DNA from: an uncultured Acidimicrobiaceae bacterium
Lineage (GTDB): Bacteria > Actinomycetota > Acidimicrobiia > Acidimicrobiales > Palsa-688
DNA: 64,000 bases
Assembly (NCBI GenBank): GCA_964481925.1
Contig: CAYZVQ010000002.1
Location: forward strand, 3,867 to 67,866
Reading direction: 5' to 3'
Part shown: in pieces, positions 41,481 to 53,964 of the stretch
Layout: every line of letters begins with the position of its first letter
Position numbering within the stretch: position 1 is the first letter of the stretch
Translations under genes and position numbers: made by a program
The notes under the pieces: model-generated
What the model saw: the letters and a program-made list of their open reading frames with translations, nothing else
Told to the model about the DNA's origin: nothing
The model's database searches: none

Positions 41481-41614
41481 TTGTCGAGCAAACGGTGTGA
41501 AGCAGTTGCCCGACAGGCTTCGAGAGCACGAAGACCCCTACGAGGCGGACGCGAACCTGGCTGGACGCGCCTTGCAGAAGAAATGGAGAGCCCGAGAGAG
41601 GAGGTGAGCGAGTA

Positions 41615-41734
41615 GTGGCATCAGAGCGGTTGGGGGGGGACGAGATCCCCGAGGGGACCTTCCACGGTGGGGACGAGATCCCCGAGGGGACCTTCCACGG
41701 TGGGGACGAGATCCCCGCTGGCACGTTCCACTGA
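41615..41734 (+). CDS. candidate 39-aa repeat peptide (VASERLG-[GDEIPEGTFHG]x2-GDEIPAGTFH)
   Basis: GTG preceded by SD GAGGAGG (41598-41604). The reading frame coincides with a 33-bp tandem repeat, and a perfect 13-bp hairpin follows. There is no homology support and the ORF is very short. Confidence 0.3.
   Translation: MASERLGGDEIPEGTFHGGDEIPEGTFHGGDEIPAGTFH
41636..41731 (+). repeat. 33-bp tandem repeat x2.9 (GGGGACGAGATCCCCGAGGGGACCTTCCACGGT)
   Basis: Units at 41636-41668 and 41669-41701 are identical. The third (41702-41731) has 4 substitutions. Confidence 0.95.
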
Positions 41735-42319: not shown

Positions 42320-43932
42320 CACTGGCACGTACCGCCCTCAGCTTTATGACCCGCCCCCAAGCCCTAGCAGAGCTGTTCCTCGGCCGAGCGTTGGCGCTGA
42401 GCCCGCCCTCCCGCTACCGGCGCATGACCCCGGGTGACCTTCGTGGACCAGGGCCGTTGGTCCTGACCGATCAGGTCCACGACCAGATAGCTCGGACGAT
42501 CGGCGATATGCCGGCTGAGCAGGGCGGCATGCTGGGCGGCCGTCGCCGGACCGGCACAGTCACGCATTTTGCCTTCGATGGGTCAGCACGATGCTCGTTC
42601 GCCACCTACACCCCCGACAGAGCGACCCTCAACCAGCTCTTGCGAGAAGAGTGGAACCCCCAGGACGTGGACTTGCTCGGTTTTGCGCACAGCCATCCGA
42701 CAGGGTCATCGAGGCCGAGCCACGGCGACCTCATTTATGCCGACAGGATCCTGGCCGCTATCCCGGCCATGGACCGGCTTGTCCTGCCCATAGTCCAGAC
42801 GATCCCGGGTTCGGGGAACTTCGGGTTGTACGCCTACGTCGCCACCAGGACCACGGGGACGGCGCAGATCGACGATGTCCCGGTCATGGTCGTACCGGCG
42901 GAGCCCGGTGATCCCACCGTTGGCGACGCTGGGTTCGACCGCGTCCGCGACGCCTACGATCTCGCCCTCACGGCGCGGGCGCGCCTGGTGTTGGTCGGCG
43001 TCGGCGGGGCGGCCGGTTTCGCCGAGTCGATGGCTCGGGCCGGGGTTGGCGAGTTCGTCCTGATCGACCCTGATGTCGTCGAGTTGCCTAACGTGGGCAC
43101 GCAGCAGGTCTACCGGTCCGACGTCGGCCGGCCGAAGATCGATGCCGTAGCCGGCCGCATACTGGACGTGAACCCCTACGCCCGGGTGGTGGGGGCTCAA
43201 GTCTCACTTGACGCGCTGAGCGATGACATGGTCCGGCGGCTCGTGCACCGGCCCTTGGCGAACAGTGCCACGCCCGGCCCTGTGACGACGGTGTTGTGCG
43301 GGTTCACCGACGACTTCTGGGCCCAGGCCCGGGTCAACCGCCTAGCACTGCACCTGGGCGTTCCCATGCTGGCCGCCCAGGTGTACCGGGAGGGCAGGGG
43401 AGCCGAAGTCAGCTTCTCCGTCCCCGGTGTGACCCGGGCGTGCGGGCGATGCGTCTTGGGGCCCCGCTACCGCGCCTTCCTGGAACGCGGCTACCGCAAC
43501 ACGGTTAGTTCCCACGGGACCCCGCTGTGGGCCACGGAGCGGCTCAATGCCCTCAAGGCCGAGGTTATTCTCGCCATCCTCCACGGCACGGCCGGGTACG
43601 GCGATGTCGGGCACCCGGCCAGAGCCCGGTACTCCTCGTTGCGCGAGCGGGTCGCCGCCCGCAACCTGGTTGTCGCCCGGCTCGATCCCGACATGGCGGA
43701 GACGCTCGGCGTCACCATGTTCGACAAAGCCTTGGCGGGGGCGGACGGCGAACGCATCGTCGCCGATGAGACCCTCTGGCTGCCACAGGACCCCGAGGGG
43801 CCGGAGACAGGGTTCGAACCATGCCCGGACTGCAAAGGCACCGGCGACCTCACCCTGTGCCAGGGCACGTTCACGGACACCCGGCTCTCGCCGCCGGCCG
43901 TGGTCGAGCTGGAGACGGCCGGCGGGAACTGA
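42316..43932 (+). CDS. JAB/MPN metalloisopeptidase - E1 (ThiF/MoeB-like adenylyltransferase) fusion
   Basis: JAMM motif GFAHSHPTGSSRPSHGD (about 42680-42729) with upstream EQGGMLGG. E1 Rossmann LVLVGVGGAAGFA...VLIDPDVVELPNVGTQ. Two CxxC pairs (CGRC at 43441-43452, CPDC at 43822-43833), as in Zn-binding ThiF/MoeB. Confidence 0.85.
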   Translation: MTLARTALSFMTRPQALAELFLGRALALSPPSRYRRMTPGDLRGPGPLVLTDQVHDQIARTIGDMPAEQGGMLGGRRRTGTVTHFAFDGSARCSFATYTPDRATLNQLLREEWNPQDVDLLGFAHSHPTGSSRPSHGDLIYADRILAAIPAMDRLVLPIVQTIPGSGNFGLYAYVATRTTGTAQIDDVPVMVVPAEPGDPTVGDAGFDRVRDAYDLALTARARLVLVGVGGAAGFAESMARAGVGEFVLIDPDVVELPNVGTQQVYRSDVGRPKIDAVAGRILDVNPYARVVGAQVSLDALSDDMVRRLVHRPLANSATPGPVTTVLCGFTDDFWAQARVNRLALHLGVPMLAAQVYREGRGAEVSFSVPGVTRACGRCVLGPRYRAFLERGYRNTVSSHGTPLWATERLNALKAEVILAILHGTAGYGDVGHPARARYSSLRERVAARNLVVARLDPDMAETLGVTMFDKALAGADGERIVADETLWLPQDPEGPETGFEPCPDCKGTGDLTLCQGTFTDTRLSPPAVVELETAGGN

Positions 43933-43993
43933 GCGGTCGGCGCCTCTGGACGCAACTTGCAAAACCAGGGTCACAGCTTGTTCGGAGGTGAGC

Positions 43994-44512
43994 ATGTCCA
44001 GTGACAACTCGCGGCACCCCGACTACGTCCCCAAGGGTGTTCCCCTCAGTGGCGTAGTGGCGCGTAGCACGGTTTGGGAACGGACCGTTGTCCCCATCGG
44101 CGGTTCGGCCCGGGCGCTGGCCTGGGTCGCCACCCCGGCATTGCTGGCCCTGACACTGACGGTCCTGGTGTGGCCGGCCCCGGGTACCGGTGCTCAGCGC
44201 CCGGGCTTCTTTGTCTTCGGCTGGCCCTGGGTGGCCAGCCTGTTGCGGGTGGCTCACAGCTTTGTACCCAGCGACCTGGTCACTTCGGTGCTGCTACTGA
44301 CCATTTGCTTGTTGACAGCCGGCTTCACCGAGGCTGGTCGACGAGTCCAGCTGGCCCTCGGTGCCGTCCTGGTTTCTGCGCTGGTGGCGCTGGCCTTCCC
44401 GGCTCTCGTGCTGGCCATAGCCGTTGCCAATTTGGCCCTATGGATCCTGGTCGGTGCCCTTATCGCCGCCGCCGTCATCATCGTCATCGCCGCGCTGTGC
44501 TCAGCGCTTTGA
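43994..44512 (+). CDS. membrane protein (4 predicted TM segments), unknown function
   Basis: ATG at 43994 after GGAGGTG. Hydrophobic segments ALAWVATPALLALTLTVLVW, FFVFGWPWVASLL, VLLLTICLLTAGF and ALVALAFPALVLAIAVANLALWILVGALIAAAVIIVIAAL. Confidence 0.6.
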   Translation: MSSDNSRHPDYVPKGVPLSGVVARSTVWERTVVPIGGSARALAWVATPALLALTLTVLVWPAPGTGAQRPGFFVFGWPWVASLLRVAHSFVPSDLVTSVLLLTICLLTAGFTEAGRRVQLALGAVLVSALVALAFPALVLAIAVANLALWILVGALIAAAVIIVIAALCSAL

Positions 44513-44530
44513 CAGGAAAGGACTACTCGC

Positions 44531-44797
44531 ATGACTTCTGCCCTACCCGCACGTGCTCTCGCCTGCCCGCAACCGGCGCCCGTGACGGCCCCTCAGCCCG
44601 CGCTGACGGTGAGCGGTCCGCGGCCCGTGACCGCTGCTCATGCCCAGGCCCCGTCGCCACGCCCGGCGGCCAAAGCCCAGCCAGAAGCCCTGGACCGCCT
44701 GGCCCGCGCCGTCGTACGTCGGGCAGCCGACAAGGGCGTCACCATCGAAGAGGCTCGCTCGTGTGCCCGGAGCGCGCCCGGGCCCGTCGACATTTGA
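44531..44797 (+). CDS. small Pro/Ala-rich protein, unknown function
   Basis: ATG 9 nt after GGAAAGGA. Fits the 18-nt gap after the previous gene. C-terminal helix-like DRLARAVVRRAADKGVTIEEAR. No homology recognised. Confidence 0.4.
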   Translation: MTSALPARALACPQPAPVTAPQPALTVSGPRPVTAAHAQAPSPRPAAKAQPEALDRLARAVVRRAADKGVTIEEARSCARSAPGPVDI

Positions 44798-44834
44798 CTC
44801 CCACCGCACCCTGACCGACGCCGAAGCCTGCCAG

Positions 44835-45116
44835 ATGCTGGCCGCTCCGCCTCCGCCCGGGCCCACCACGAGGATGGCGGCCGGGCTTGATCATGCCGCG
44901 CTCGCCGTGGGCCTGGCCGCCGGTGCGCTCGCCCTGGGCGCCGCCGCCCTTTTGGCTTCGCCCCTCTTCGTCGTCGGGTCGCTTGGCGGGACGCTCGGTG
45001 GGACCGTCGATCCCGCCATCATCGGTGTGCTCACGCTGCCGGGCACGGGCTGGCAGCCGGGAACGCCCGCCGCTTGGTTCCTACTCACCCATTGGGACTG
45101 GAGACTTCTGTTATGA
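44835..45116 (+). CDS. small membrane protein, unknown function
   Basis: High GC3 in this frame. Hydrophobic AALAVGLAAGALALGAAALLASPLFVVGSLGG. Ends 16 nt before the AAA+ gene. Alternative start at 44874. Confidence 0.4.
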   Translation: MLAAPPPPGPTTRMAAGLDHAALAVGLAAGALALGAAALLASPLFVVGSLGGTLGGTVDPAIIGVLTLPGTGWQPGTPAAWFLLTHWDWRLLL

Positions 45117-45132
45117 AATGGAGGCAATAGCA

Positions 45133-46446
45133 ATGAGCCAACTGCTGCAAGCTTCGCCCGAACGCCTGGCCGCTCTGCGCGAACGCGCTGAACGGTCCTG
45201 CCTGGCCTTCTCCGACGAACGACTGCCACCGGGGGCGTCGCCGGGCGTGGGCCGGGTGGGTATCGAGATCGACCCGGTCAGCGGGCGGGCCCTGCTCCAC
45301 GTCGAGCGGGGTATCCATTACACCGGTCCCAGTCCCGACGTGGCGACCTGGTTTGCCAGTGGCACGCTGAGCTTCGCCACCTACGACGAGCTTCGCCGGT
45401 GGCTTTCCGGTCCCCTTGCCGTCGCCTACAACGGCCACGCCGTCTCTACCGGTGATAACGGCAGTGCCGGCGGTGCCGGGCCGGGCGGGGCCGTCGAGGC
45501 CATCGTCATTGAAGACGACCGCCTGGCGGCGGCCCTGGAGCTCGAGGTCATAGGCCAGCACGGCTCCGCCGTGGCCCTGGCCCGAGCCGCCGCCCTCCAC
45601 CTGGCTCGAGTGGCCCCCCGCCGCCCTCTCACGGTCCTCGCCCTAGGCCCGACCGGGGTGGGTAAGACCCTGATGGCCGAAACGCTTGCCGGTGCCATAG
45701 CTAAGACCGCCGGTACCGACTGCGACTACCTTCGCCTCGACATGGCCGAGTTCCAAGAGCGCCACACCGTTTCCAAGCTGCTCGGTGCCCCTCCCGGCTA
45801 CGTCGGCTTCGGTGAAGACCCGCAGATCCTTCGCGCCTTGCGCACGGGTGGACGGGCTGTAGTGCTCATCGACGAGATCGAAAAAGCACACCCCGACGTG
45901 TTCTTGGCACTCATGAACCTTATGGACGCTGGGCGCATCACGCCGGCGTCCGGCGAGGCCATCGATGCCCGTCACGCCATTCTGGTCTTCACCACCAACC
46001 TTGCCGTAGAGGTCATCCGGTCCGTCCTATCCCAAGCGAGCAACCTGGAGCCCGTTAGCCGGGACACCGCCGTGCGGGCCGCGCTGCGGTCCCATGGCAT
46101 CGCCCCTGAGCTCGTCGGCCGTCTCCACGAACTGCTGGTGTTCGACGACCTGGGCCAGGAACACCTGGACGCTCTCATCGCCCGTTCGGTCGAGCGAGAA
46201 GGTCGTACCTTCGGGCTCGAAGTGCTGAAGGTCGCCCCGGAGGTAATCGAGGCTCTTCGGTGCCATCGCTCCGACCCGGGCTCAGGTGCGCGAGCCTGGG
46301 AGCATCTCATCTGCGTCGATATTGGGCCCGCGTTCTTGGACGCACGTCGACGCGGTATCACCGGCATGGTGAGCATCAAGGGCGATCCCATCACAGTCGA
46401 GCCCGAGACGGTGATGACCGAGACGGCCAGGAGTGATGTGCAATGA
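45133..46446 (+). CDS. Clp/Hsp100 D2-type AAA+ ATPase with unrecognised N-terminal domain
   Basis: LALGPTGVGKTLMAETLA (Walker A), LRLDMAEFQERHTVSKLLGAPPGYVGF, VVLIDEIEKAHPDVFLALMNLMDAGRIT (Walker B / AAA_2 signature). The first roughly 190 aa have no match I recognise. Stop overlaps the next start (ATGA at 46443-46446). Confidence 0.8.
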   Translation: MSQLLQASPERLAALRERAERSCLAFSDERLPPGASPGVGRVGIEIDPVSGRALLHVERGIHYTGPSPDVATWFASGTLSFATYDELRRWLSGPLAVAYNGHAVSTGDNGSAGGAGPGGAVEAIVIEDDRLAAALELEVIGQHGSAVALARAAALHLARVAPRRPLTVLALGPTGVGKTLMAETLAGAIAKTAGTDCDYLRLDMAEFQERHTVSKLLGAPPGYVGFGEDPQILRALRTGGRAVVLIDEIEKAHPDVFLALMNLMDAGRITPASGEAIDARHAILVFTTNLAVEVIRSVLSQASNLEPVSRDTAVRAALRSHGIAPELVGRLHELLVFDDLGQEHLDALIARSVEREGRTFGLEVLKVAPEVIEALRCHRSDPGSGARAWEHLICVDIGPAFLDARRRGITGMVSIKGDPITVEPETVMTETARSDVQ

Positions 46447-49400
46447 GCTTGTCGATCCCCGATGACCACCATGCGCGCTCGCTGGAAGCCCTCCTCGGCG
46501 ACGGTCCTCAATCGTTGCACGCCGCGCTCGAGTGGGTGTTCCCCGTCCCGACCACCTCGCTCGGGACGGTCGACCTCGTCGACCTCGAGATAGCGGGGGA
46601 AAGCTACTGGCAGAGCCAAGCCGCCCAGCCTCGATGGGTGCGGCCCGTGCGCGTTGCCGTTGCCGGGCCCGACGAGGGAGACTTGTTCGAGCTGGATCTG
46701 CCGTGGCTGTGCGACGACCGTGCACTGCGGACGACCGCGGGGGACGACTCGATCCAAGTCGGTGCTCACAGGGGGTTATTCCTCGGCCGGCCGTTGCAGC
46801 CCCGGGCCCAGCTTGTGCCCAGACCGGGGCTACGAACCCGCCATTCCGCCACGCTGACGTTCCATGTCCTCGTACCCGACATCGGCCAGGATGTGGGTCT
46901 CGCCCGCAGCCCACGGGGCCTGGTGGTCCAGTTTGGCCGACGCCCGCCCCGGGTCTTGACTATGGCCGTGGTCGACCAGCTGCTGGCTGGGGCGCGCCCG
47001 AGCGAAGTCCCGGGCGACAGCGACCTTCCCACCCTGTCCCGGTTCCGGGCGCTCGCCACCGACGGCGGGTCGTGGGCCCGGCGGTTCAGCCCGACGACGC
47101 TCGAGCTCATCGACAGCGATTTGCGGCTGGCGGAGGCGAGCTGGTCAAGCCGTCTGCGGGCTGTGATCGAAGGTCTTGAAGGTCTAAATGTCGACGGCAG
47201 AGCGGACGTCCCGAGCTCTGGGCTGGTTGACGAGATCTCGGAAGCATCGCTCCAGTTCCGCCTCTACGGTGACATCCTGCGCCGGACCGTCGCCGAGGGA
47301 GTACTTAGGGGAGCTCGGCGGTTCCTCGATGTCGAGGCCGAACTGGTGGACGCCGCGGACCGGAAGCGGACGCGCCAGGAGGGTCACCCGGTCGAGTTGA
47401 TAGCCCGGTTCACGGCCAAGCTGAGGACCGAGGCGCAGGCGAAGGTCGACCATACGGTCCGAGCGTCCACCACTGGGGCGATCGTCGCTCCCGACGACGA
47501 CCGTTGTACCGTGGCCGCGATCGAGAGCCGGCGCATCGTGACCCGCTACGGTCCAGGTGGCGTCGGCCGTCCAGGACCGCACCGGCTGTGGCTCCGGGGG
47601 CTTCATCCCGGGCGACGCGGCCAGCTGTGCCCACTGCTCACGCCCGAGTCGGAGGACATCGGGTTCGTAAGGTCGCTCTGCCTGGGAGCCGACGCCGGAC
47701 CTGAAGCCATTGCCACCTCCGAGCGCGGCGGTGCGTTCGCCGATCTGAGCATTGCCGCCGGCCTGGTACCGTTCGTGAACCACGACGACCCCACCCGTGC
47801 CTCGATCGCCGCTCGCATGTTGCGCCAGGCCGTCCCGATCGTCGGCGCCCAGCGACCTCGCATCGAGACCCCTGTTGCCGACATCGTGGCCGAAGACCAC
47901 GGCGTGGTCCGCGCTCCCATCACGGGCACGGTGGCTGAGGTCGGCAAAGGTTGGCTCTCTATACGCCCCGATCGGGGCCACGTAGAGATCGTCGGCTTGG
48001 GGCCCGGCAAACCATCGCCGAGTACGGTCGTCAGTGACTGGCGGTTGATGGTCAGAAATGGCGATCGTGTCTACGAGGGAGACCCGGTCGCCCACGCTCC
48101 CGATGTGGTGGTCGAGGACGGCCGCCCGCACCTTGCCGCCGGCCGGGATTGTCTGGTTGCGTACACCCCGTGGCGCGGGTGGAACTACGAGGACGCCGTC
48201 GTGGTGTCCGAAGCGATGGCGGCCATGTTCAGTTCCCAGCACGTGGTCCGTTTCGTCGAGCCCCTCGACTTGATTGCCACGGAGACGCCGGTGCTCATGG
48301 CTGAGGTAGGTGACCTCGTCGCCTTAGGGGCCGACCTGGTCAGCGTGGTGTCCCGCCACCGGACGCGACGTGTGGTGCGGGCTAGCGCCGGGGGTGTCCT
48401 CAAACGCCTCGAGATCACCGGTGACCTGGTCACCGTGGAGCTGGAGGTGCCCCGCCCGCTCCAGCTGGGCGACAAGCTCACCAACCGGCATGGTGCCAAG
48501 GGCGTTGTGGCTGCTGTTCTTCCCGTTGACCAGATGCCGCGCCTCGCCGACGGCCGCCCGGTCGAGGTCCTGTTGAACCCGTTGGGGGTCATAAGGCGGC
48601 TCAACATAAGCCAACTGCTCGAGACCCATCTGACCCTGTTGCGTGACCGCCAGGGCCAAGAAGGTACGCAGGTCGTCGGGCGGCGCCTCCCGTCACTTCA
48701 GGAGCTGCGGCATGCGCTGGCGGAGGCGGAGGCACCTGGAGGGAGGCTCCCCCTGTTCGGTCCTGACGGCCGGAGCGTAGGCGACGAGGGGGGAGTCGTC
48801 GTCGGTTGGCAGCACATCCTCAAGCTCGACCACCTGGCGGCTCACAAGCTTCGGGCCCGGAACGCGGGCCGGTTCTCGCCTCGTACTCAGCAGCCCGCCA
48901 AGGGCGGAGGTTGGGTCGCCGGCCGCCTGGTCGGCGGAGCGCAACGGCTGGGCGAGATGGAGATGTGGGCCTTGCAGGCTCTCGGCGCCGACACCGTTGT
49001 CGCTGACGCGATGGAGCGCAGTGACCACGCCGTGCGGTCCCTGGCCGCCGTCAGGGCCCATCTGCTCGTGGCGGGCATTCAACTGGGAGCTGATGAGACC
49101 GGCAATATCATCGTCAGCCGCCACGGCGAGCCGACCGGTCTGGAGCCCATCCCGGCAGAGATAGTGCAAGCCATCACCAACCCCAAGGTGTACGCCGAGG
49201 CACTGTCACCACAACGCGACCCGTTGCACGACCATCACCACGGGGTCGAACCCGGAGAGCCCAGCTGCGCCTGCGGAGATACCGGCGGGCCCGGAGCGGT
49301 CTGTCCCCACTGTGGTAGCCGAACTGCTCGGGCCGCCGGGTACGAGCGGTCAACTCCTCGTTTCGCCATCGATCTGAGCGTCCCTGTCCCGCACCCCTGG

Positions 49401-51317
49401 TTCCCCGACGACGACCGGGCCACCCTGCGTACCGTCCCCTTGCTCCCACCGGCCTACCGGCCCTTCCACGACAACCGCCTTGACATTGCCTACCGTCGCC
49501 TCGTCATTATCAACGAGAAGCTCCGCGGGCGAGGTGCCGACGACCTCGGTGCCCGCCGCCAGCTTGGTGCCGCGGTGCAGCGAGTGCTCGGCCGTCTCGA
49601 CGACCCGCCCGAGCTCGAGACGATCTCGAGCCGGCTGAACGGCAAACGCGGCCTGTTGCGACGCAGCCTGCGGGGCCGGGACACCGACTTCGCGGCCCGG
49701 GGGGTCATGGTGCCCGATCCTGAGGCCGACCCCGAGACGATCGGTGTGCCCGAGGCCGTAATGGCCGTACTCGGGCTCCACCCGGGTACTGACGAGTGGG
49801 GCGACATCGTTATTGTCAACCGCCAACCCACATTGCTCCCCACCAATATCGTCGCCCTGCGGGCCCGGCCCGTGCCGGGGGTGGCGTTCCGGGTCCACCC
49901 GTTCCTCTGCGCTCGGTTCGCCGGAGACTTCGACGGAGACGAGCTGACCGTGCACCGTCCCCTGTCGTCGGCAGCGGCCGCGGAGGCGTGGGCACGGTTC
50001 CGTCCCGCGGCGTCCTACCGCCACCCGGCCAACGGCCGCCCCGTGGCCAAGGTCGACCTCGACGTCGCCCTTGGGCTGTGGTTGACAGGTAGCGACCCGG
50101 CTGGACGAGCCCGACTTGCCTGCCGGCTCGGGCTGGCGGCAGATGACCCCGTCAACTCCGGGACGGGCCCGGTGACCCCGGTCGAGCAGCTCGCGCTTCT
50201 GGCTCGCTGCGCCGAACAAGCCTCGGACGGGCGCATTGCGGTGGAGCGGTTCACGGCCCTTTTCGACGCCGGCGTGGTCGCGGCGACAGGGTGGTCGTTC
50301 TCCGCCGTCGAAGTCGAGCGCGTCCCGGGCTTGGGCCCTGCCGGCGACGCCGCGGTCACCAGCGCGGTCCCCGCCGGCTCGGCCCTGGGCCAAGCCATCG
50401 CCGCCGGGGTGGCCGGTAAGGCGAAAGGTATCGCCCAACTGGTGTGGCGCCGAGGCAGCCTCGACGGTTTCGATGGGCGGCCAACTCCTGAGGTGGAGGA
50501 GTGCTTCCTGACTGGTTTGGACGACGCCGGCTTCTTTCACACCGCGGCGGGCGGCCTGCGGGCGCTCTCCGACAAGAAACTAGTTACCGCCCTCGCCGGG
50601 GGTCTCACCAAAGCCCTGATCGAGGCCGCCTACGACCTCACGGTCGAGGACGAGGACTGCGGCTCTCGGCACCGGGGTTTCGGAGCGGTCCTGAGCTGCC
50701 GGCTGGTTGGCCCTGGCGTGTGCGCCCGGTGCGTCGCCGCGGCCGGCGGTGGCACTGTTGGCGTAGGCGACCGCGTTGGCCTTCAAGCCGGCTTTGCCAT
50801 CGGTGAGCGCTGCACTCAAAACGCCATGAAGGCATTCCAGGGCGGAACGACCCTGGCCGTGGGCGGGAACGTTACCCGTTTGGCTGCTCTCTTCGGCCAA
50901 GGCCCGATAACCACCGGACAACTTGGAGGCAAGCCCGATGGCGCCACCTTGTCGGGCCTACTGGACCTGGACAGGACCCCGCAGGGCCGTACCGCTATGT
51001 TCGAAAGGCTTCGCCACCAGGCCGATGAGGCACTCGAAACCCAAGTGGGCCCGCACCATTTGGAGCTGCTCTGGCGGCGCTTGGTGAGCGCCCATGATAC
51101 CCGGCGACCAGGTGAGCTCAGCCGACGGGGCAATGGCACCCTGCTGGCGAAGGCCCAGGTGGCCGGGACCGCCTTTGTCGACGCCACCAGCAGGGGGCGG
51201 CTCGACCTGCTCTTGGCCGACCAGCCGGATGTCGACGTCGACGCCGCCGGCCCTGAGACGAGCCTGCGCATGAGAGTCATCGGGCACCTCGGCGCCGTTG
51301 CGGGGGTGCGGATGTGA
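46443..51317 (+). CDS. single-chain fusion of RNA polymerase beta-like and beta-prime-like modules (1624 aa, miniaturised)
   Basis: Beta-like: RYGPGGV..LHPGRRGQLCPLLTPESEDIGFV (about 47560-47669), FVNHDDPTRASIAARMLRQAVP (about 47771-47837), VAYTPWRGWNYEDAVVVS, NRHGAKGVV (48483), LNPLGVIRRLNISQLLETHL, GGAQRLGEMEMWAL (48951-48974).
Beta-prime-like: Zn ribbon CACGD..CPHCG (49266-49316), VPHPWF, NRQPTLL, HPFLCARFAGDFDGDELTVHRPLS (DFDGD at 49926-49940), a bridge-helix-like segment, and trigger-loop-like GLQAGFAIGERCTQNAMKAFQGG. Confidence 0.85.
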   Translation: MSLSIPDDHHARSLEALLGDGPQSLHAALEWVFPVPTTSLGTVDLVDLEIAGESYWQSQAAQPRWVRPVRVAVAGPDEGDLFELDLPWLCDDRALRTTAGDDSIQVGAHRGLFLGRPLQPRAQLVPRPGLRTRHSATLTFHVLVPDIGQDVGLARSPRGLVVQFGRRPPRVLTMAVVDQLLAGARPSEVPGDSDLPTLSRFRALATDGGSWARRFSPTTLELIDSDLRLAEASWSSRLRAVIEGLEGLNVDGRADVPSSGLVDEISEASLQFRLYGDILRRTVAEGVLRGARRFLDVEAELVDAADRKRTRQEGHPVELIARFTAKLRTEAQAKVDHTVRASTTGAIVAPDDDRCTVAAIESRRIVTRYGPGGVGRPGPHRLWLRGLHPGRRGQLCPLLTPESEDIGFVRSLCLGADAGPEAIATSERGGAFADLSIAAGLVPFVNHDDPTRASIAARMLRQAVPIVGAQRPRIETPVADIVAEDHGVVRAPITGTVAEVGKGWLSIRPDRGHVEIVGLGPGKPSPSTVVSDWRLMVRNGDRVYEGDPVAHAPDVVVEDGRPHLAAGRDCLVAYTPWRGWNYEDAVVVSEAMAAMFSSQHVVRFVEPLDLIATETPVLMAEVGDLVALGADLVSVVSRHRTRRVVRASAGGVLKRLEITGDLVTVELEVPRPLQLGDKLTNRHGAKGVVAAVLPVDQMPRLADGRPVEVLLNPLGVIRRLNISQLLETHLTLLRDRQGQEGTQVVGRRLPSLQELRHALAEAEAPGGRLPLFGPDGRSVGDEGGVVVGWQHILKLDHLAAHKLRARNAGRFSPRTQQPAKGGGWVAGRLVGGAQRLGEMEMWALQALGADTVVADAMERSDHAVRSLAAVRAHLLVAGIQLGADETGNIIVSRHGEPTGLEPIPAEIVQAITNPKVYAEALSPQRDPLHDHHHGVEPGEPSCACGDTGGPGAVCPHCGSRTARAAGYERSTPRFAIDLSVPVPHPWFPDDDRATLRTVPLLPPAYRPFHDNRLDIAYRRLVIINEKLRGRGADDLGARRQLGAAVQRVLGRLDDPPELETISSRLNGKRGLLRRSLRGRDTDFAARGVMVPDPEADPETIGVPEAVMAVLGLHPGTDEWGDIVIVNRQPTLLPTNIVALRARPVPGVAFRVHPFLCARFAGDFDGDELTVHRPLSSAAAAEAWARFRPAASYRHPANGRPVAKVDLDVALGLWLTGSDPAGRARLACRLGLAADDPVNSGTGPVTPVEQLALLARCAEQASDGRIAVERFTALFDAGVVAATGWSFSAVEVERVPGLGPAGDAAVTSAVPAGSALGQAIAAGVAGKAKGIAQLVWRRGSLDGFDGRPTPEVEECFLTGLDDAGFFHTAAGGLRALSDKKLVTALAGGLTKALIEAAYDLTVEDEDCGSRHRGFGAVLSCRLVGPGVCARCVAAAGGGTVGVGDRVGLQAGFAIGERCTQNAMKAFQGGTTLAVGGNVTRLAALFGQGPITTGQLGGKPDGATLSGLLDLDRTPQGRTAMFERLRHQADEALETQVGPHHLELLWRRLVSAHDTRRPGELSRRGNGTLLAKAQVAGTAFVDATSRGRLDLLLADQPDVDVDAAGPETSLRMRVIGHLGAVAGVRM

Positions 51318-52360
51318 GCCCGGGCAGGCGAAATGTCCGGCCCGGGACCGGCACGGGCAACGCCATCGAGACGGTCAAAGCCGTCGGCCCTGAGACCCGG
51401 AAAGGGCCGAGCCGGACCGTCCGGCTGGCCCGAGCCCTGGCCAGCGGGCTCCTAAACCAAGATGATGGCCGGGACCGCGAAGACGACGACTACGAACCGG
51501 ACCCCTGGGACGAGCTCCCTGAGGAACTCGACCCGGACGACACCGATGCGTTGACAGATGACGATTATGTCGACAATGTTGACGACAAACCTCTGGTCCC
51601 GCGTTCGGCGCGTTCAAGGCCGATTATCACGTTCTCCAAGTCCTCGGGCTGGCACCAACGTCCCGACCCGCTGACGGCGCACGCCGTCCGGCGCCCGACC
51701 AGGTCGGCGCCCATGGCTCGCGGCATGCAGGTCCGCACTGTCAGCTCGCCCGGTGGTGGCCCCGATGGCGACGAGGTGGCGGCGAGCGAGGCGGAAGCCG
51801 AACTGGCGGCGATCGCCCAGGCTCTGGCTGATCGCCAGCCGTCGGCAATCTTGGCGTCCAGCCGGCTCGATGCGTACGACGAGCTCCAGCCGATGACTGA
51901 GCGGGCCCTGGCCGAGGCCGCCGGTTGCGACGTAGCCGCCCTCAGCCGCCGTCGACGGTCCCTGGTCGCCTGCCCCTGGGGCGTAGTGCCCCTTGAATAC
52001 TTCTGGTGGAAACGCCACGACGGGCTCCGGGTCGCCGAGGCCCGCCGGCTCGTCTCGCTCCTGCAGGACCAGCCCCGGACCGCCGACCTCGCCGCCGCGG
52101 CCCAGGTGGTAGCCGCCGACCGCCTCGCTGACCCGGAGGAGAGGCGGCGGCGCACAGATACGATACGCAAGCAAGTGCCCGTCGTTCGCGCCATCCTGCC
52201 GCACCTCGACCTGCTCAACGGCTGGTCGGCGGCGTTCCCGTTCATCGACGAGGAGGAGCTCGAGGAACAACTTGGCCTTACGCCTAGCGTGCGTGGCAAA
52301 GGACTGGTCCGCCTAGCCCTCATAGGGTGCTTCGCGGGAAGGAGCGGCTTGTGCTCGTAG
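51314..52360 (+). CDS. sigma54-like (RpoN-like) protein, short form
   Basis: PMTERALAEAAGCDVAALSRRRRSLVACPWGVVPLEYFWWK (51893-52012) parallels RpoN PM.L.DIA.....HESTISR...KY...P.G.FELKYFF. RRRRTDTIRKQVPVV (about 52142-52186) parallels the RpoN box ARRTVAKYRE. Has an acidic tract like region II. 348 aa vs about 480 for canonical RpoN. ATGA-type overlap with the polymerase gene. Confidence 0.55.
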   Translation: MSPGRRNVRPGTGTGNAIETVKAVGPETRKGPSRTVRLARALASGLLNQDDGRDREDDDYEPDPWDELPEELDPDDTDALTDDDYVDNVDDKPLVPRSARSRPIITFSKSSGWHQRPDPLTAHAVRRPTRSAPMARGMQVRTVSSPGGGPDGDEVAASEAEAELAAIAQALADRQPSAILASSRLDAYDELQPMTERALAEAAGCDVAALSRRRRSLVACPWGVVPLEYFWWKRHDGLRVAEARRLVSLLQDQPRTADLAAAAQVVAADRLADPEERRRRTDTIRKQVPVVRAILPHLDLLNGWSAAFPFIDEEELEEQLGLTPSVRGKGLVRLALIGCFAGRSGLCS

Positions 52361-53964
52361 GAAATCACGGGTGCCCGGACCTGGCGGCACGGCTCGAAAT
52401 GGCGGGCATGGAGGCCCGGGTCATCGACACCCACTCCGACCTGAACACGGACATTGAATACCTGTTCGTGAGGGTGTCGGGTGAGCGCTACCCGCCCGTC
52501 CTGGCCCGTGCGGCCGAGCTCGATATCCCCACCACCGTGGTGGTCGACGTGCTCAGCACGTGGGCGCTGGCGGAACTGTTGCTCCGGAACCCCAACGTCG
52601 AGGAAATCCTTGAGGACGCCACCCTGGGCTCGCTCGACCTGGAGCGCGTACGAGGCACCGTCGCCATGCGCACCGCCGTCGGCCACGGTTTTCGGATCGG
52701 CACCCTCCTGGCCATGCCTGACGATCCCGAGGGTTACGAGGCGCGGCGTTATCTCTCGTTTGTCTCACCGGCGATGGCGGGCTTCTTACGGGAACTTCGT
52801 GCCGCGCTCGGACAGATGGTAAGGCCCCGCCCACCTATCCCCTGGGACCCCACGGACGGCCATGACCCAGTCGAAATAGTGGAGAAAAGTGGTGAGCCGC
52901 ACACTCAGGCCCCCTATAACCTCTCGGACCTCGTTCGTCATGCCAAGAAACCCTGGGCGCGAGAAGTCCTGAGCGCGGCCGATGAACGCCGGTGGCAGCC
53001 CCTGCCACCACCGCTGTTGCTGCTCGGAGAAAGCGGCACCGGCAAAAGCCTTGTGGCCCGGCTCATCCACGAGCAACTAACCGATGCCGTCTCGGACAAA
53101 CGATTGCGTGGGTGCCTTGTACCGGTGAACACCGCGGCCATGGACACCCGCAACTTCGACTACGAGCTGTTCGGAGCGGCCCAAGGCACATGGAACGAGG
53201 TCGACTATCGCGTCGGTGCCATCACCCAGGCCGCCTATGGCACCGTCTTTTTCGACGAGATAGGCGACATGCCCGTCCCGGCCCAGAGCCGCCTGCTGAC
53301 GTTTTTCAACGACTTAGCGGTCAAGATCGAGGGTGCCCGGGCCTTTTTCAGCTTCACCCACGTCCTGGCCGCTACTAACCGTGACCTTGACCATCTTGTC
53401 ACTTCAGGCCGCTTCAAGCACGACCTGTTGGCGCGGTTCCGTTGCCGCGTGACCCTTCCGCCCCTTCGCCAGCGCTCCGCGGACGAGCTCCGGCGGCTGG
53501 TCGATTTCGTGGCCCAGGACCCCGCGGTCAACCCTCGCAGCCCGAGACATGAGCCGGGCACCTCCAGGGCCGAACGTCTCGTCACGCATATTTCCGAGGA
53601 CGCCATGTCCCTCGTGCTCGGTCACCGCTACAGCGAGGGCAATTTCAGGGAGCTCGAAGAGATCATCCATACCGGGATCTGGCGTGCTCGTGGGGCCAAT
53701 AGCCGCACCCTGGAACCCGACCACCTAGAGCTTCGACCCCAGCGGTTCCGTCCCGATGCCGACCGCCGCGTGATCAACGTGCGAGCGCTGCCGGCGGCGC
53801 CGAAAGGAGCGGTCTTCGTCGAGAACATCGACGAGATCAGCCGCTATGCCGACCTGCGCAATTGTCCGATCCTGCGAGCCGGTGGCATTTACGCCATCAT
53901 CGACGGCGACCTCCATCTACGCTTCGGTCCTGTCCCTGAGGCCAACGGTCACGCCGAGCGTTGA
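52351..53964 (+). CDS. bEBP-like (sigma54-interaction-domain) AAA+ ATPase with divergent GAFTGA loop
   Basis: LLLLGESGTGKSLVARLIH (53026-53049), ELFGAAQGTWNEV in the GAFTGA position (53170-53202), GTVFFDEIGDM, VLAATNRDL..V..GRFKHDLLARFR..V.LPPLRQR. GTG at 52351 follows GGAAGGAG and overlaps the upstream stop. N-terminal receiver-like region. No obvious C-terminal Fis-type HTH. Confidence 0.75.
   Translation: MLVGNHGCPDLAARLEMAGMEARVIDTHSDLNTDIEYLFVRVSGERYPPVLARAAELDIPTTVVVDVLSTWALAELLLRNPNVEEILEDATLGSLDLERVRGTVAMRTAVGHGFRIGTLLAMPDDPEGYEARRYLSFVSPAMAGFLRELRAALGQMVRPRPPIPWDPTDGHDPVEIVEKSGEPHTQAPYNLSDLVRHAKKPWAREVLSAADERRWQPLPPPLLLLGESGTGKSLVARLIHEQLTDAVSDKRLRGCLVPVNTAAMDTRNFDYELFGAAQGTWNEVDYRVGAITQAAYGTVFFDEIGDMPVPAQSRLLTFFNDLAVKIEGARAFFSFTHVLAATNRDLDHLVTSGRFKHDLLARFRCRVTLPPLRQRSADELRRLVDFVAQDPAVNPRSPRHEPGTSRAERLVTHISEDAMSLVLGHRYSEGNFRELEEIIHTGIWRARGANSRTLEPDHLELRPQRFRPDADRRVINVRALPAAPKGAVFVENIDEISRYADLRNCPILRAGGIYAIIDGDLHLRFGPVPEANGHAER

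What the first reader, a model, noticed from the sequence alone, without database searches (positions are those of the whole stretch)
46443..51317. Miniaturised single-chain beta + beta-prime RNA polymerase-like protein with intact catalytic signatures
Seen in sequence:
- A single 1624-aa ORF carries beta-type motifs in canonical order: GPGG/..TPE..IG, HDD..RA....M.RQAVP, NRHGAKG, LNPLG, GEMEMWAL at aa about 837.
- These are followed directly by beta-prime-type motifs: a Zn ribbon at aa about 942, NRQPTL, AGDFDGD at aa 1160-1166 with all three Asp present, a bridge-helix-like segment, and trigger-loop-like GERCTQNAMKAFQGG.

Established knowledge:
- Bacterial beta is about 1150-1350 aa and beta-prime about 1300-1400 aa. 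Natural fusions (Helicobacter, Wolbachia) are about 2900 aa.
- This protein is a little over half of that, so the lobes, clamp insertions and jaw must be largely deleted.
- No alpha or omega genes accompany it.
- Small two-barrel RNAPs are known from prophage and phage (for example YonO of SPbeta, and crAss-like and jumbo-phage enzymes). As far as I know those are not sigma54-associated.

Inference: a minimal, probably active DNA-dependent RNA polymerase distinct from the housekeeping enzyme.
Basis: partly seen in the sequence, partly recalled or inferred. Interest (0 to 1): 0.9.

Follow-up and report, generated by a model that had tools for sequence, protein, structure and literature searches.

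The report
Mini RNA polymerase with own sigma54-like system
This gene encodes a half-size, single-chain version of the bacterial RNA polymerase, and it always sits next to its own sigma54-like promoter-recognition protein and an ATPase activator, which looks like a previously undescribed, self-contained second transcription machine that switches on neighbouring accessory genes.

Summary
ORF 46443-51317 (+) encodes 1624 aa with all beta and then beta-prime catalytic signatures, invariant across relatives. It is not an artefact or a decayed rpoBC copy.

The polymerase is the first gene of a conserved three-gene core:
- the fused mini-RNAP;
- a ~300-390-aa protein whose C-terminal half carries the sigma54-specific HTH module (hhalign probability 96.9%, E 1.6e-10);
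- a Sigma54_activat AAA+ ATPase in which GAFTGA is replaced by GxWNEV.

A sigma54-like bipartite motif, TGGACGC-NN-CTTGC, lies upstream of genes and points into them. It precedes the module's own operon and adjacent cargo operons in the window (39790, 41562, 43947) and in seven related loci. It has no exact match in 1.54 Mb of other fetched loci.

The hosts are Actinomycetota (probably Acidimicrobiales; one relative is in Mycobacterium sp.). From my own knowledge, that phylum lacks sigma54.

An exhaustive search finds about 55 clusters at 50% identity in this AGDFDGD clade, plus sister clades of compact fusions in PVC bacteria and others.

Best reading: an autonomous, enhancer-type, ATP-gated transcription module driving variable cargo. 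I found no description of it in the literature searched. Activity and partner binding are untested.

The parts
46443..51317 (+). Fused mini beta/beta-prime RNA polymerase, 1624 aa. It has a family-specific N-terminal domain (about 1-360), then fork, beta double-psi barrel, Zn ribbon, clamp core, beta-prime barrel with AGDFDGD, bridge helix, second Zn site and trigger loop.
   Evidence: The start overlaps the stop of the upstream AAA_2 gene and the stop overlaps the start of the next gene, which suggests translational coupling.
51314..52360 (+). Sigma54-like specificity factor, 348 aa. It has a basic N-terminus with a conserved PSRxxRLxRALA helix, an acidic DPWxExPEELEPxDxD segment, and a C-terminal helical domain carrying the sigma54-type HTH and beta-hairpin (MTxRxLAEAAG...LSRRRR...PWG.VPLE(F/Y)FWWK). 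An RpoN-box-like RRTDTIRKQV follows.
   Evidence: hhalign of alignment A2 against nine sigma54 sequences: probability 96.9%, E 1.6e-10, residues 189-234 aligned to E. coli sigma54 360-406; reversed control E 0.35. Pfam Sigma54_DBD hit in 7 of 9 orthologues, best E 2.8e-4. The only PDB profile hit is RpoN. AF2 pLDDT above 80 for residues 160-300. The Foldseek hits with the highest probability are sigma54 chains. It follows the polymerase gene in every locus examined.
52327..53964 (+). bEBP-like AAA+ ATPase, about 520-545 aa. Gene callers on identical contigs place the start at 52351 or 52399. It has an unknown N-terminal domain of about 220 aa, a Sigma54_activat AAA+ core in which the L1 loop reads G(T/V)WNEV instead of GAFTGA, and a conserved C-terminal domain of about 70 aa with no recognised HTH.
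   Evidence: Pfam Sigma54_activat 5.5e-29. NCBIfam RtcR/PrdR/NorR/NtrC 1e-38 to 1e-31. L1 loop and invariant W289.
43947..43960 (+). Promoter-like motif TGGACGCAACTTGC. It lies 34 nt before the ATG at 43994, in the 61-nt gap after the JAB-ThiF gene. It would drive the 172-aa, 88-aa, 80-aa, AAA_2, RNAP, sigma54-like and AAA+ genes.
   Evidence: Exact match to the family motif. It scores 25.4 bits with a matrix built only from other loci; the highest score in 20 shuffles was 17.5.
41562..41575 (+). Promoter-like motif TGGACGCGCCTTGC, 40 nt before the GTG start of the repeat-peptide gene.
   Evidence: Scores 20.8 bits in the non-circular scan.
39790..39803 (+). Promoter-like motif with one mismatch (TGGACGCAGTTTGC), about 90 nt before the Peptidase_A4-like gene as called on an identical contig.
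   Evidence: Scores 18.2 bits in the non-circular scan. This is the weakest of the three sites.
45133..46446 (+). ClpB-D2-like AAA_2 ATPase (437 aa as called). It is cargo or an accessory gene of this sub-clade.
   Evidence: Pfam AAA_2 1e-36 and NCBIfam ClpB 2e-50. It recurs beside the module in L091 and L103.
43994..45116 (+). Three small ORFs (172, 88 and 80 aa) with no family match, lying between the promoter and the AAA_2 gene.
   Evidence: Gene calls on identical contigs. No Pfam, PADLOC or PHROG hits. The 172-aa gene is conserved in L091 behind the same motif.
42316..43932 (+). JAB peptidase fused to a ThiF/E1-like adenylating enzyme (538 aa). Cargo.
   Evidence: Pfam ThiF 8e-18 and Prok-JAB 2e-8. 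PADLOC E1-E2 and JAB models. It recurs in L091 and L103.
41861..42319 (+). 152-aa protein of unknown family, directly upstream of the JAB-E1 gene and overlapping it. Counterparts of 140-151 aa occur in L091 and L103.
41615..41734 (+). 39-aa ORF made of three tandem GGDEIPEGTFH units.
   Evidence: The same unit is present at the edge of L091.
39896..41419 (+). Peptidase_A4-like protein; the start is uncertain (39896 or 40163). It is the first gene behind the upstream motif.
   Evidence: Pfam Peptidase_A4 1.5e-10. Gene calls.

Best explanation
**What it is.** The ORF is the catalytic core of an autonomous, enhancer-type (sigma54-style) transcription module encoded by three adjacent, translationally coupled genes.

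**Proposed mechanism.**
1. The fused mini beta/beta-prime polymerase supplies the two-barrel active site, bridge helix and trigger loop in one chain. Fusion presumably removes the need for the alpha-dimer assembly platform (inferred).
2. The 348-aa sigma54-like protein binds the polymerase and recognises a bipartite promoter, TGGACGC-NN-CTTGC(A/T). This resembles the -24/-12 sigma54 promoter TGGCACG-N4-TTGC, but its GG and GC elements are one base closer. The complex is held closed (inferred by analogy).
3. The AAA+ ATPase senses an unknown signal through its N-terminal domain. It uses ATP hydrolysis and its variant L1 loop (GxWNEV) to remodel the closed complex into an open one (inferred by analogy).

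**Targets.** The promoters sit in front of the module's own operon, giving a positive-feedback switch, and in front of adjacent, highly variable cargo operons.
- In this window the cargo is a JAB-E1 ubiquitin-like-conjugation-type cassette, a ClpB-like ATPase, a repeat peptide and a peptidase.
- Elsewhere the cargo includes biosynthetic enzymes, a CHAT protease with a nucleotidyltransferase, and others.

**Why carry a polymerase.** Bringing its own polymerase makes the switch independent of the host enzyme. That allows it to work in Actinomycetota, which (from my own knowledge) have no sigma54.
For: **Shown.**
- Complete, invariant catalytic signatures.
- Strict gene order, polymerase then a ~300-390-aa protein then a Sigma54_activat AAA+, in every full locus of the AGDFDGD clade examined. 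These span 38-100% polymerase identity: window, L004-L007, L090, L091, L101, L103 and, with one extra small ORF, L092. L102 shows the first two genes and is cut inside the third.
- Sister clades mostly carry the AAA+ gene 0.7-1.5 kb downstream.
- The middle protein carries the sigma54-specific HTH module: hhalign 96.9%, E 1.6e-10, reversed control E 0.35. Pfam Sigma54_DBD hits 7 of 9 orthologues. RpoN is the only PDB hit. The most probable Foldseek hits are sigma54 chains.
- The motif TGGACGCNNCTTGC has 10 exact matches in 193 kb of non-redundant family loci, against about 0.05 expected from base composition. It has none in 1.54 Mb of other fetched loci.
- All 20 sites with at most one or two mismatches that I inspected lie in front of the adjacent gene and point into it, mostly 33-140 nt from its start (one 254 nt). 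They form back-to-back divergent pairs in front of the polymerase gene in L004, L005, L006 and L090.
- A matrix built without the window recovers exactly the three window sites as top hits (25.4, 20.8 and 18.2 bits; shuffle maximum 17.5).
- A variant of the motif persists at 43% polymerase identity, in L102.

**Host.** Actinomycetota: a neighbouring gene product is in a 90%-identity cluster with Acidimicrobiales MAG proteins, and one relative is WP_460359122.1 of Mycobacterium sp. ZZG.
Against: - There is no experimental evidence of polymerase activity or of any protein-protein contact.
- Neither the sigma54 core-binding domain nor Region I is detectable in the middle protein. The RpoN-box equivalence is by eye only.
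- GAFTGA, the loop that defines bEBP-sigma54 coupling, is absent.
- The sigma-like protein and the AAA+ could in principle act on the host polymerase, leaving the mini enzyme with another job.
- Middle proteins of the sister clades align to sigma54 only weakly (E 0.026) and have no Pfam hit. No shared promoter was found there.
- No motif site was found in L007.
- The AF2 model of the catalytic core is of low confidence.
- Two NTP-contacting residues are substituted family-wide: E. coli beta-prime N458 becomes Ala, and trigger-loop H936 becomes Gln. Substrate choice could therefore differ.
Confidence: 0.68

Rival explanations
1. It is a duplicated, decaying or chimeric copy of the host's housekeeping rpoB-rpoC, or an assembly artefact, with no function of its own.
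For: It has bacterial-type beta and beta-prime motifs in the canonical order. GC content is similar to the flanks.
Against: - Identity to any canonical RpoB is only about 30-43%, and only in the conserved blocks.
- Scores are about equal against beta subunits of all phyla.
- It is an intact 1624-codon frame, found identically on three independent contigs.
- Twelve full-length orthologues have 65% mean column identity and invariant catalytic residues. About 55 clusters at 50% identity share the AGDFDGD / NRQPTLxP signature and the N-terminal domain.
- Gene neighbours and the promoter motif are conserved.
Confidence: 0.02
2. It is the transcription enzyme of a mobile element or prophage, as YonO is for SPbeta or as the N4, crAss and jumbo-phage polymerases are. 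On this reading it serves the element's own gene programme, not a host-beneficial switch.
For: - Phyletic distribution is patchy and cargo is variable.
- Transposases flank the module in L090 and L006.
- Self-sufficiency is typical of mobile elements.
- It lies next to conflict-type genes such as STAND NTPases, CHAT, Cas10/RAMP and TCAD9.
Against: - No family member occurs in 50,697 phage or 72,556 plasmid records.
- PHROG hits are only to full-size phage beta and beta-prime families.
- The window has no integrase, structural, replication or conjugation gene and no tRNA gene next to the module.
- The surrounding genes are ordinary chromosomal metabolism genes.
- This rival changes who benefits, not the mechanism.
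Confidence: 0.15
3. The polymerase is not a promoter-directed transcriptase. Instead it is an effector that makes an RNA, DNA or mixed product, for example a signal, a primer or a decoy. The sigma54-like protein and the AAA+ would then regulate host-polymerase transcription of the operon.
For: - Family-invariant substitutions at two residues that contact the incoming nucleotide: AGDFDGD instead of NADFDGD, and MKAFQGG instead of MRTFHxGG.
- Lobes, flap and jaw are reduced.
- The sigma54 core-binding domain is not detectable in the partner.
Against: - Three-gene linkage is strict across deep divergence.
- The hosts lack sigma54 (my own knowledge), and their core enzyme has never had to accommodate such a factor.
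- The clamp, Zn ribbon, lid/rudder region, bridge helix and trigger loop needed for templated, processive transcription are retained.
- The promoter precedes many different cargo genes.
Confidence: 0.1
4. The mini polymerase uses ordinary host sigma70-family factors. The adjacent AAA+ and middle protein would be unrelated neighbours or chaperones.
For: The beta-prime clamp-helix region (E. coli 207-374), which is the main sigma70 docking site, is retained.
Against: - The flap region is shortened.
- No sigma70-type promoter was found in the cluster.
- The conserved motif is of the sigma54 type.
- Linkage of the three genes is near-universal.
Confidence: 0.05

Closest known systems
Bacterial housekeeping RNA polymerase beta/beta-prime (RpoB/RpoC), including the natural RpoBC fusions of Helicobacter and Wolbachia-type bacteria
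   Same: - Bacterial-type sequence motifs in the same order.
- Both double-psi barrels, the Mg-binding DFDGD, the beta ED pair, two Zn sites, bridge helix and trigger loop.
- Beta fused N-terminal to beta-prime, as in the natural fusions.
   Different: - 1624 aa, against about 2500-2900 aa for the natural fusions.
- The beta N-terminal lobes are replaced by an unrelated-looking 360-aa domain.
- The flap is shortened. Beta-prime 517-692, SI3 and the jaw are absent.
- It fails all curated equivalog cutoffs by a wide margin.
- N458 becomes Ala and trigger-loop His becomes Gln.
- It is encoded in an accessory operon with its own initiation factors, with no rpoA, rpoZ or ribosomal-protein context.
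Sigma54 (RpoN) with bacterial enhancer-binding proteins such as NtrC, PspF and RtcR
   Same: - A bipartite GG...GC promoter with TTGC at the downstream element.
- A specificity factor with the sigma54-type HTH and hairpin.
- A Sigma54_activat AAA+ ATPase encoded alongside.
- The expected tight off-state and ATP-dependent activation.
   Different: - The factor is about 350 aa, not about 480 aa, with no detectable Region I or core-binding domain.
- Promoter spacing is one base shorter and the upstream element is TGGACGC.
- The AAA+ lacks GAFTGA (it has GxWNEV) and has no recognisable Fis-type HTH.
- The partner polymerase is a private mini enzyme.
- It occurs in Actinomycetota, which from my own knowledge lack sigma54.
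Single-chain two-barrel polymerases of phages and prophages: YonO of SPbeta (PMC5467207), the crAss-like phage virion RNAP (bioRxiv 10.1101/2020.03.07.982082), the P23-45 RNAPs (PMC10770324) and the jumbo-phage multisubunit RNAPs (PMC7598289)
   Same: They are compact, non-housekeeping two-barrel RNA polymerases that work without the alpha and omega subunits and serve a dedicated gene set.
   Different: - Those enzymes are so diverged that standard RpoB/RpoC models barely detect them. This one scores E 1e-38 to 1e-78.
- The papers consulted and my own recollection report no association of them with sigma54-like factors or AAA+ activators. I did not check this systematically.
- They are viral. 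This family was not found in the phage or plasmid collections.
- No direct sequence comparison with YonO was run.

Membership tests
Two-barrel (multisubunit-type) RNA polymerase catalytic core | Beta-type double-psi barrel with the conserved Lys-containing NRHGxKG motif, plus the ED and GEME motifs | tested here: met
   Pfam Rpb2_6 E 1e-38 and Rpb2_7 4e-5. N681-G687, E583/D584 and G837-E840 are invariant in 12 sequences.
Two-barrel (multisubunit-type) RNA polymerase catalytic core | Beta-prime-type barrel with the three catalytic Asp of DFDGD | tested here: met
   Pfam Rpb1_2 E 2e-18. D1162, D1164 and D1166 are invariant. The flanking Asn of NADFDGD is replaced (AGDFDGD).
Two-barrel (multisubunit-type) RNA polymerase catalytic core | Bridge helix and trigger loop | tested here: met
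   Pfam Rpb1_5. The family HMM aligns to E. coli beta-prime 693-817 and 884-940. The trigger-loop Met is kept and the His is replaced by Gln.
Two-barrel (multisubunit-type) RNA polymerase catalytic core | The predicted 3D structure forms the two barrels around one active site | tested here: inconclusive
   AF2 of residues 1-1200 gave mean pLDDT 54, and the core is mostly below 50. Foldseek still ranks bacterial beta subunits first (E 5e-21), but with TM-scores of about 0.24.
Housekeeping RpoB / RpoC / RpoBC equivalogs (NCBIfam) | Score above the curated equivalog cutoff and full-length domain set (Rpb2_1/2/45; Rpb1_3/4) | tested here: not met
   263 against 896 bits (rpoB), 114 against 963 (rpoC), 242 against 5372 (rpoBC fusion). 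No Rpb2_1, Rpb2_2, Rpb2_45, Rpb1_3 or Rpb1_4 hit.
Sigma54 (RpoN), tested on the 348-aa neighbour | C-terminal DNA-binding region with the sigma54 HTH and hairpin | tested here: met
   hhalign probability 96.9%, E 1.6e-10, onto E. coli sigma54 360-406; reversed control E 0.35. Pfam Sigma54_DBD hits 7 of 9 orthologues, but below the gathering score.
Sigma54 (RpoN), tested on the 348-aa neighbour | RpoN box (ARRTVAKYR) | tested here: inconclusive
   RRTDTIRKQV at 279-288, with invariant R280, R285, K286 and Q287, resembles it by eye. The local hhalign alignment does not extend to it.
Sigma54 (RpoN), tested on the 348-aa neighbour | Region I (activator-interacting) and core-binding domain | tested here: not met
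   No Sigma54_AID or Sigma54_CBD hit at E up to 10 in any of nine orthologues. The N-terminal half is predicted to be mostly disordered.
Sigma54 (RpoN), tested on the 348-aa neighbour | Cognate -24 GG / -12 GC promoter | tested here: met
   TGGACGC-NN-CTTGC lies upstream of and points into module and cargo genes. It is a variant: the GG-to-GC spacing is 9 bases, not 10.
Bacterial enhancer-binding protein, tested on the 545-aa neighbour | Sigma54_activat AAA+ domain | tested here: met
   Pfam E 5.5e-29. NCBIfam RtcR 8e-38, below the equivalog cutoff.
Bacterial enhancer-binding protein, tested on the 545-aa neighbour | GAFTGA L1 loop | tested here: not met
   The loop reads GTWNEV in the window and G(V/A)W(N/A)(E/D)(V/I) in orthologues, with W invariant.
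Bacterial enhancer-binding protein, tested on the 545-aa neighbour | C-terminal Fis-type HTH and upstream activator sites | tested here: not met
   No HTH_8 or other HTH hit at the Pfam E-value limit used (0.01). The divergent promoter pairs leave no room for an upstream enhancer. Some genuine bEBPs also lack this domain (my own knowledge).
YonO-like single-chain RNAP | Sequence relationship to YonO, and a prophage context | not tested
   No YonO sequence was compared directly. No phage record holds a family member, and PHROG hits are only to full-size beta and beta-prime families.
Known anti-phage defence systems (PADLOC) | Match of the core proteins to a catalogued system | tested here: not met
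   The polymerase and the sigma-like protein have no hit. The AAA+ hits only the AAA part of the RtcR models. JAB-E1 hits the generic E1-E2 and JAB models.

The most novel reading that the evidence does not exclude
Bacteria of several phyla carry a second, miniature, fully autonomous cellular-type transcription machine (fused beta/beta-prime, a stripped-down sigma54, and an AAA+ trigger). It would work independently of the host polymerase as an all-or-none, self-amplifying emergency switch. On a danger signal such as phage infection or host-polymerase shut-off, it would express otherwise silent cargo: a ubiquitin-like conjugation cassette here, and proteases, nucleotidyltransferases or biosynthetic clusters elsewhere. 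Lacking the jaw, SI3 and most of the flap and lobes, it would also escape phage inhibitors and antibiotics aimed at those parts of the host enzyme.
Probability: 0.3. Interest if true: 0.95.

Novelty: new variant of a known kind. Interest (0 to 1): 0.88.

Why it matters
If the module works as inferred, several things follow.

- **A second polymerase.** Bacterial cells would not be limited to one cellular-type RNA polymerase. A roughly 180-kDa single chain would define a natural minimal beta/beta-prime core. That bears on which parts of the enzyme are dispensable and on how the polymerase and sigma54 evolved.
- **Sigma54 logic in Actinomycetota.** Enhancer-type, ATP-gated initiation would operate in a phylum thought to lack it.
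- **A portable switch.** The three genes plus a 14-bp promoter would be a ready-made orthogonal, tightly off, ATP-gated expression system for synthetic biology.
- **Silent cargo.** Some cargo behind the promoter looks biosynthetic (the L004 operon), and other cargo looks defence-like. The module could therefore be a handle for awakening silent clusters or for finding new immune systems.

Tried and rejected
1. **Word-indexed homologue search.** It suggested only 13 clusters. This was misleading: the exhaustive search shows a large family.
2. **Genome-collection scan with the family alignment.** It returned only canonical rpoBC loci and sister-clade compact fusions. No AGDFDGD-clade member was found among the 185,579 species representatives. 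I first treated all 80 loci as controls, but later found that about 24 encode compact fusions. They still contain no exact motif match.
3. **Profile search for the middle protein in the 5.8-billion-protein set.** It found only family members and no sigma54. The relationship needed profile-profile comparison.
4. **hhalign against E. coli sigma54 alone.** It gave the right region but low probability, so I built a nine-sequence sigma54 alignment from plasmid-borne rpoN genes.
5. **AF2 of polymerase residues 1-1200.** Only the N-terminal domain (10-340) and a beta-rich block at 597-672 were confident. The barrels could not be judged. The protein exceeds the 1200-aa limit, so the C-terminal 424 aa were not modelled.
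6. **Middle proteins of sister clades.** No Pfam hit and weak hhalign (E 0.026).
7. **Promoter search in sister clades with canonical and family patterns.** Nothing consistent.
8. **Other negative or uninformative searches.** PADLOC, PHROGs and the plasmid and phage collections held no family member. The sigma70 promoter and terminator scan was uninformative.
9. **Literature.** Seven full-text searches and two papers queried by term search gave no description of a fused mini polymerase linked to sigma54-like and AAA+ genes. Iyer and Aravind 2012 (J Struct Biol) could not be retrieved under the PMC identifier I recalled, so I could not check whether it mentions the family.
10. **Contig look-up for the Mycobacterium homologue P0012.** It failed.

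Full report
**1. The observation**

ORF 46443-51317 (+) is real and encodes 1624 aa.
- Pfam recognises, in order: Rpb2_3 (359-415), Rpb2_6 (660-821, E 1e-38), Rpb2_7 (832-862), weakly Rpb1_1 (909-998), Rpb1_2 (1120-1182, E 2e-18) and Rpb1_5 (1358-1469).
- NCBIfam bacterial rpoB and rpoC models hit at 4e-78 and 6e-33, but far below their equivalog cutoffs. The rpoBC-fusion models score 242 bits against a cutoff of 5372.
- The identical protein is on three independently assembled contigs. Twelve full-length relatives of 50-61% identity share the architecture, with 65% mean column identity.
- Invariant in those relatives: NRHGAKG, the ED pair, GEMExWA, both four-Cys Zn sites, NRQPTLLPTN, AGDFDGDE, the bridge helix, and the trigger-loop segment TQxAMKAFQGG.

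**2. What is retained and what is lost**

I aligned a family HMM to E. coli RpoB and RpoC.
- Retained in beta: 516-586 (fork), 655-835, 1050-1150 and 1206-1290.
- Retained in beta-prime: 66-117 (Zn ribbon), 207-374 (clamp core), 418-516 (catalytic barrel), 693-817 (bridge helix) and 884-940 (second Zn site, first trigger helix).
- Not matched: beta 1-515, most of 836-1049 (flap and SI2, about 60 residues remain), beta-prime 517-692, SI3, and the jaw/C-terminal part.
- The first ~360 residues are family-specific. AlphaFold models them confidently as a beta-rich domain followed by helices.
- The catalytic core of that model is of low confidence (mean pLDDT 54, 12-sequence alignment). Barrel formation rests on sequence homology, not on the model.
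- Foldseek nevertheless ranks bacterial beta subunits first (E 5e-21, TM about 0.24).
- Two nucleotide-contacting residues are changed throughout the clade. The Asn of NADFDGD is Ala, and the trigger-loop His is Gln (the E. coli numbering N458 and H936 is from my own knowledge).

**3. Not a host copy**

Profile scores against solved beta subunits are about the same for Thermus (257 bits), Clostridium (256), cyanobacteria (250), M. tuberculosis (241-243) and E. coli (238). The enzyme therefore has no special affinity to actinobacterial RpoB. Identity to any canonical RpoB is about 30-43% in the conserved blocks only.

**4. The conserved neighbourhood**

The gene order is the same in every full locus I could fetch: polymerase, then a ~300-390-aa protein with no confident family hit, then a Sigma54_activat AAA+ ATPase, usually with overlapping stop and start codons.
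- Loci: window, L004, L005, L006, L007, L090, L091, and the more distant L101 (48% identity), L102 (43%, contig cut inside the third gene), L092 (41%, with one extra small ORF) and L103 (38%).
- Sources.
- Everything else around the core varies.

**5. The middle protein is sigma54-like**

By eye its C-terminal half resembles the sigma54 DNA-binding region. I tested this four ways.
- Pfam Sigma54_DBD is the top hit in 7 of 9 orthologues, best E 2.8e-4, below the gathering score.
- A profile search of all PDB sequences returns a single hit, RpoN (5ui5), E 0.47, over the HTH.
- hhalign of the nine-member family alignment against nine sigma54 sequences (E. coli plus eight plasmid-borne rpoN genes) gives probability 96.9% and E 1.6e-10. 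It aligns residues 189-234 to E. coli sigma54 360-406, which is the HTH with its following hairpin. The reversed-sequence control gives E 0.35.
- The AF2 model is confident for residues 160-300. Its Foldseek hits with the highest probability (0.69-0.87) are sigma54 chains of holoenzyme cryo-EM structures, although the E-values are weak.

Neither the core-binding domain nor Region I of sigma54 is detectable. The N-terminal half is basic, then strongly acidic (invariant DPW..PEEL.P.D.D), and is predicted to be disordered. The protein is therefore sigma54-like in its promoter-reading part but is not a bona fide RpoN.

**6. The ATPase**

The third gene has a clear bEBP-type AAA+ core: Pfam 5.5e-29, and RtcR, PrdR, NorR and NtrC models at 1e-38 to 1e-31.
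- Its L1 loop reads G(T/V)WNEV, with an invariant Trp, where bEBPs have GAFTGA.
- It has an unassigned N-terminal domain of about 220 aa (a candidate sensor) and a conserved C-terminal domain of about 70 aa, with no recognisable HTH.

**7. A matching promoter**

Reading the intergenic regions revealed a shared motif, TGGACGC-NN-CTTGC(A/T). This is the sigma54 -24/-12 consensus TGGCACG-N4-TTGC with the GG and GC elements one base closer.
- Exact matches are in the window (41562, 43947), L004 (2), L005 (3), L006 (1) and L091 (2). None occurs in the 80 other loci then in memory, 1.54 Mb.
- From base composition, about 0.05 exact matches are expected in the 193 kb of family loci; 10 are seen.
- With one or two mismatches, further sites appear at window 39790, in L090, and in L102, L092 and L103.
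- All 20 sites I inspected in the window, L004, L005, L006, L090, L091 and L102 lie in front of the adjacent gene and point into it, mostly 33-140 nt from its start (one 254 nt).
- In L004, L005, L006 and L090, two copies sit back to back immediately upstream of the polymerase gene. They would drive it and a divergent cargo operon. This also implies that the called starts of those polymerase genes are too far upstream.
- A weight matrix built from 15 sites in other loci only, scanned over the 64-kb window, gives the three window sites as the top three hits: 25.4, 20.8 and 18.2 bits. The next hit is 13.2, and the maximum in 20 shuffles is 17.5.

**8. Layout in the window**
- Motif 39790 precedes a Peptidase_A4-like gene.
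- Motif 41562 precedes a 39-aa repeat peptide, a 152-aa protein and a JAB-ThiF (E1-like) fusion.
- Motif 43947 precedes 172-, 88- and 80-aa ORFs, a ClpB-D2-like AAA_2 ATPase, the polymerase, the sigma54-like protein and the AAA+.
- The polymerase operon therefore carries its own promoter type, which would give positive feedback.

**9. Host and distribution**
- A neighbouring glycosidase (29749-30867) lies in a 90%-identity cluster with proteins of Acidimicrobiales MAGs. One polymerase relative is WP_460359122.1, a hypothetical protein of Mycobacterium sp. ZZG. The rest of the window carries ordinary chromosomal metabolism genes.
- That Actinomycetota lack rpoN is my own knowledge and could not be tested on 64 kb.
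- The exhaustive HMMER search of 1.84 billion representatives changes the picture of rarity. The top 150 hits all have E below 1e-55.
- About 55 clusters at 50% identity, mostly 1450-1810 aa, share the AGDFDGD and NRQPTLxP signatures, and many also share the N-terminal domain.
- Below them lie sister clades of compact fusions (GADFDGDE or NADFDGDT, 1450-2100 aa).
- In the species-representative genomes these sister clades occur in Pirellulales, Victivallales (two copies in one MAG), Kiritimatiellae, Verrucomicrobiota, a Burkholderiales MAG, Ca. Ozemobacter and Neomarinimicrobiota. Most have an AAA+ gene of the same type 0.7-1.5 kb downstream, and their L1 loops vary from GSFTGA to unrelated sequences.
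- Their middle proteins align to the sigma54 HTH region only weakly (E 0.026). I found no shared promoter there.
- No family member is in the phage or plasmid collections, PADLOC or PHROGs.

**10. Mechanism**

*Shown:*
- a complete, conserved catalytic core;
- strict three-gene linkage;
- a sigma54-type HTH in the partner;
- a bEBP-type AAA+;
- a conserved, correctly placed and oriented sigma54-like bipartite motif.

*Inferred:*
- the sigma-like protein binds the mini polymerase rather than the host core;
- the complex is closed until the AAA+ remodels it;
- the N-terminal domain of the AAA+ senses a signal;
- the fusion replaces alpha-mediated assembly.

The variable cargo behind the motif suggests a portable switch for accessory or conflict functions. 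It includes:
- the JAB-E1 plus ClpB-like set, which recurs in the window, L091 and L103;
- a biosynthetic operon in L004;
- a nucleotidyltransferase with a CHAT protease in L005.

Other neighbours, not tied to a motif site, include Cas10/RAMP in L103 and STAND NTPases in several loci. What the cargo does was not resolved.

**11. Comparison and novelty**
- It works like sigma54-bEBP transcription and is built like a bacterial beta/beta-prime fusion. It nevertheless fails the membership tests for housekeeping RpoB/RpoC/RpoBC, for RpoN (no core-binding domain or Region I) and for canonical bEBPs (no GAFTGA).
- It shares the idea of a compact private polymerase with YonO and the crAss and jumbo-phage enzymes, but it is much closer to cellular enzymes and is not viral in context.
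- Seven full-text searches found no description. One potentially relevant review could not be retrieved under the identifier I tried.
- I rate it a new variant of known kinds, whose combination into a second autonomous transcription machine appears to be undescribed.

Noticed in passing
window 41615-41734 (+): A 39-aa ORF, VASERLGGDEIPEGTFHGGDEIPEGTFHGGDEIPAGTFH, made of three 33-bp tandem repeats (93% match). It lies directly behind a promoter motif and ahead of the 152-aa and JAB-E1 genes, and is followed by a G+C-rich hairpin. The same GDEIPEGTFH unit ends an ORF at the edge of L091. The GG-punctuated units next to a JAB peptidase and an E1 suggest a precursor of small GG-ended tags, or a RiPP-like precursor. 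This is untested.
   Followed up: partly
window 41861-46446; L091 204-4876; L103 441-4326 (-): A set of genes recurs beside the polymerase module at 61% and at 38% polymerase identity: a ~150-aa protein, a JAB-ThiF(E1) fusion and a ClpB-D2-like AAA_2 ATPase (plus a conserved 172-aa protein in the window and L091). In L103 the set is divergent. It may be a preferred cargo resembling ubiquitin-like conjugation defence cassettes.
   Followed up: partly
L004 618-8880 (-): Two promoter motifs (8880 and 8807) precede a biosynthetic-looking operon: AMP-binding enzyme, prenyltransferase-like protein, short-chain dehydrogenase, PhyH and TauD oxygenases, and a phosphopantetheinyl transferase. The module may therefore control a natural-product cluster in that organism.
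   Followed up: no
L017-L041 (species-representative genomes): Sister clades of compact fused beta/beta-prime proteins (1450-2100 aa; GADFDGDE or NADFDGDT) occur in PVC bacteria, a Burkholderiales MAG, Ca. Ozemobacter and Neomarinimicrobiota. Most have a Sigma54_activat AAA+ gene just downstream. One Victivallales MAG has two copies (L026 and L036), and a Chloracidobacterium locus (L043) looks fragmented.
   Followed up: partly
window 46443-51317, residues 1160 and 1466: Two substitutions are invariant across the clade at residues that contact the incoming nucleotide in canonical enzymes. The Asn of NADFDGD is Ala, and the trigger-loop His is Gln. These may affect sugar discrimination or catalytic rate.
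   Followed up: partly
L004 10001, L005 10001, L090 10001: The promoter pairs lie inside the 5' ends of the called polymerase genes. The annotated starts of P0006, P0008 and P0005 are therefore probably 35-70 codons too far upstream. A conserved GTGCCAATGT element follows the motif in these leaders.
   Followed up: partly
window 24722-28429 (+) and 61075-63993 (-): An nSTAND1 NTPase with WD40 repeats and a TPR-CHAT protease flank the region. nSTAND1-pentapeptide, ATP-grasp_3 and CHAT genes also recur near the module in L004-L007. No promoter motif was found in front of the two window genes.
   Followed up: no
window 54584-57248 (-): Mur-ligase-like and MurL-type epimerase genes converge on the end of the module. 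A GLUCM-like D-glutamate cyclase-type gene lies at 36663-37538. These may be unrelated peptidoglycan or glutamate metabolism genes.
   Followed up: no
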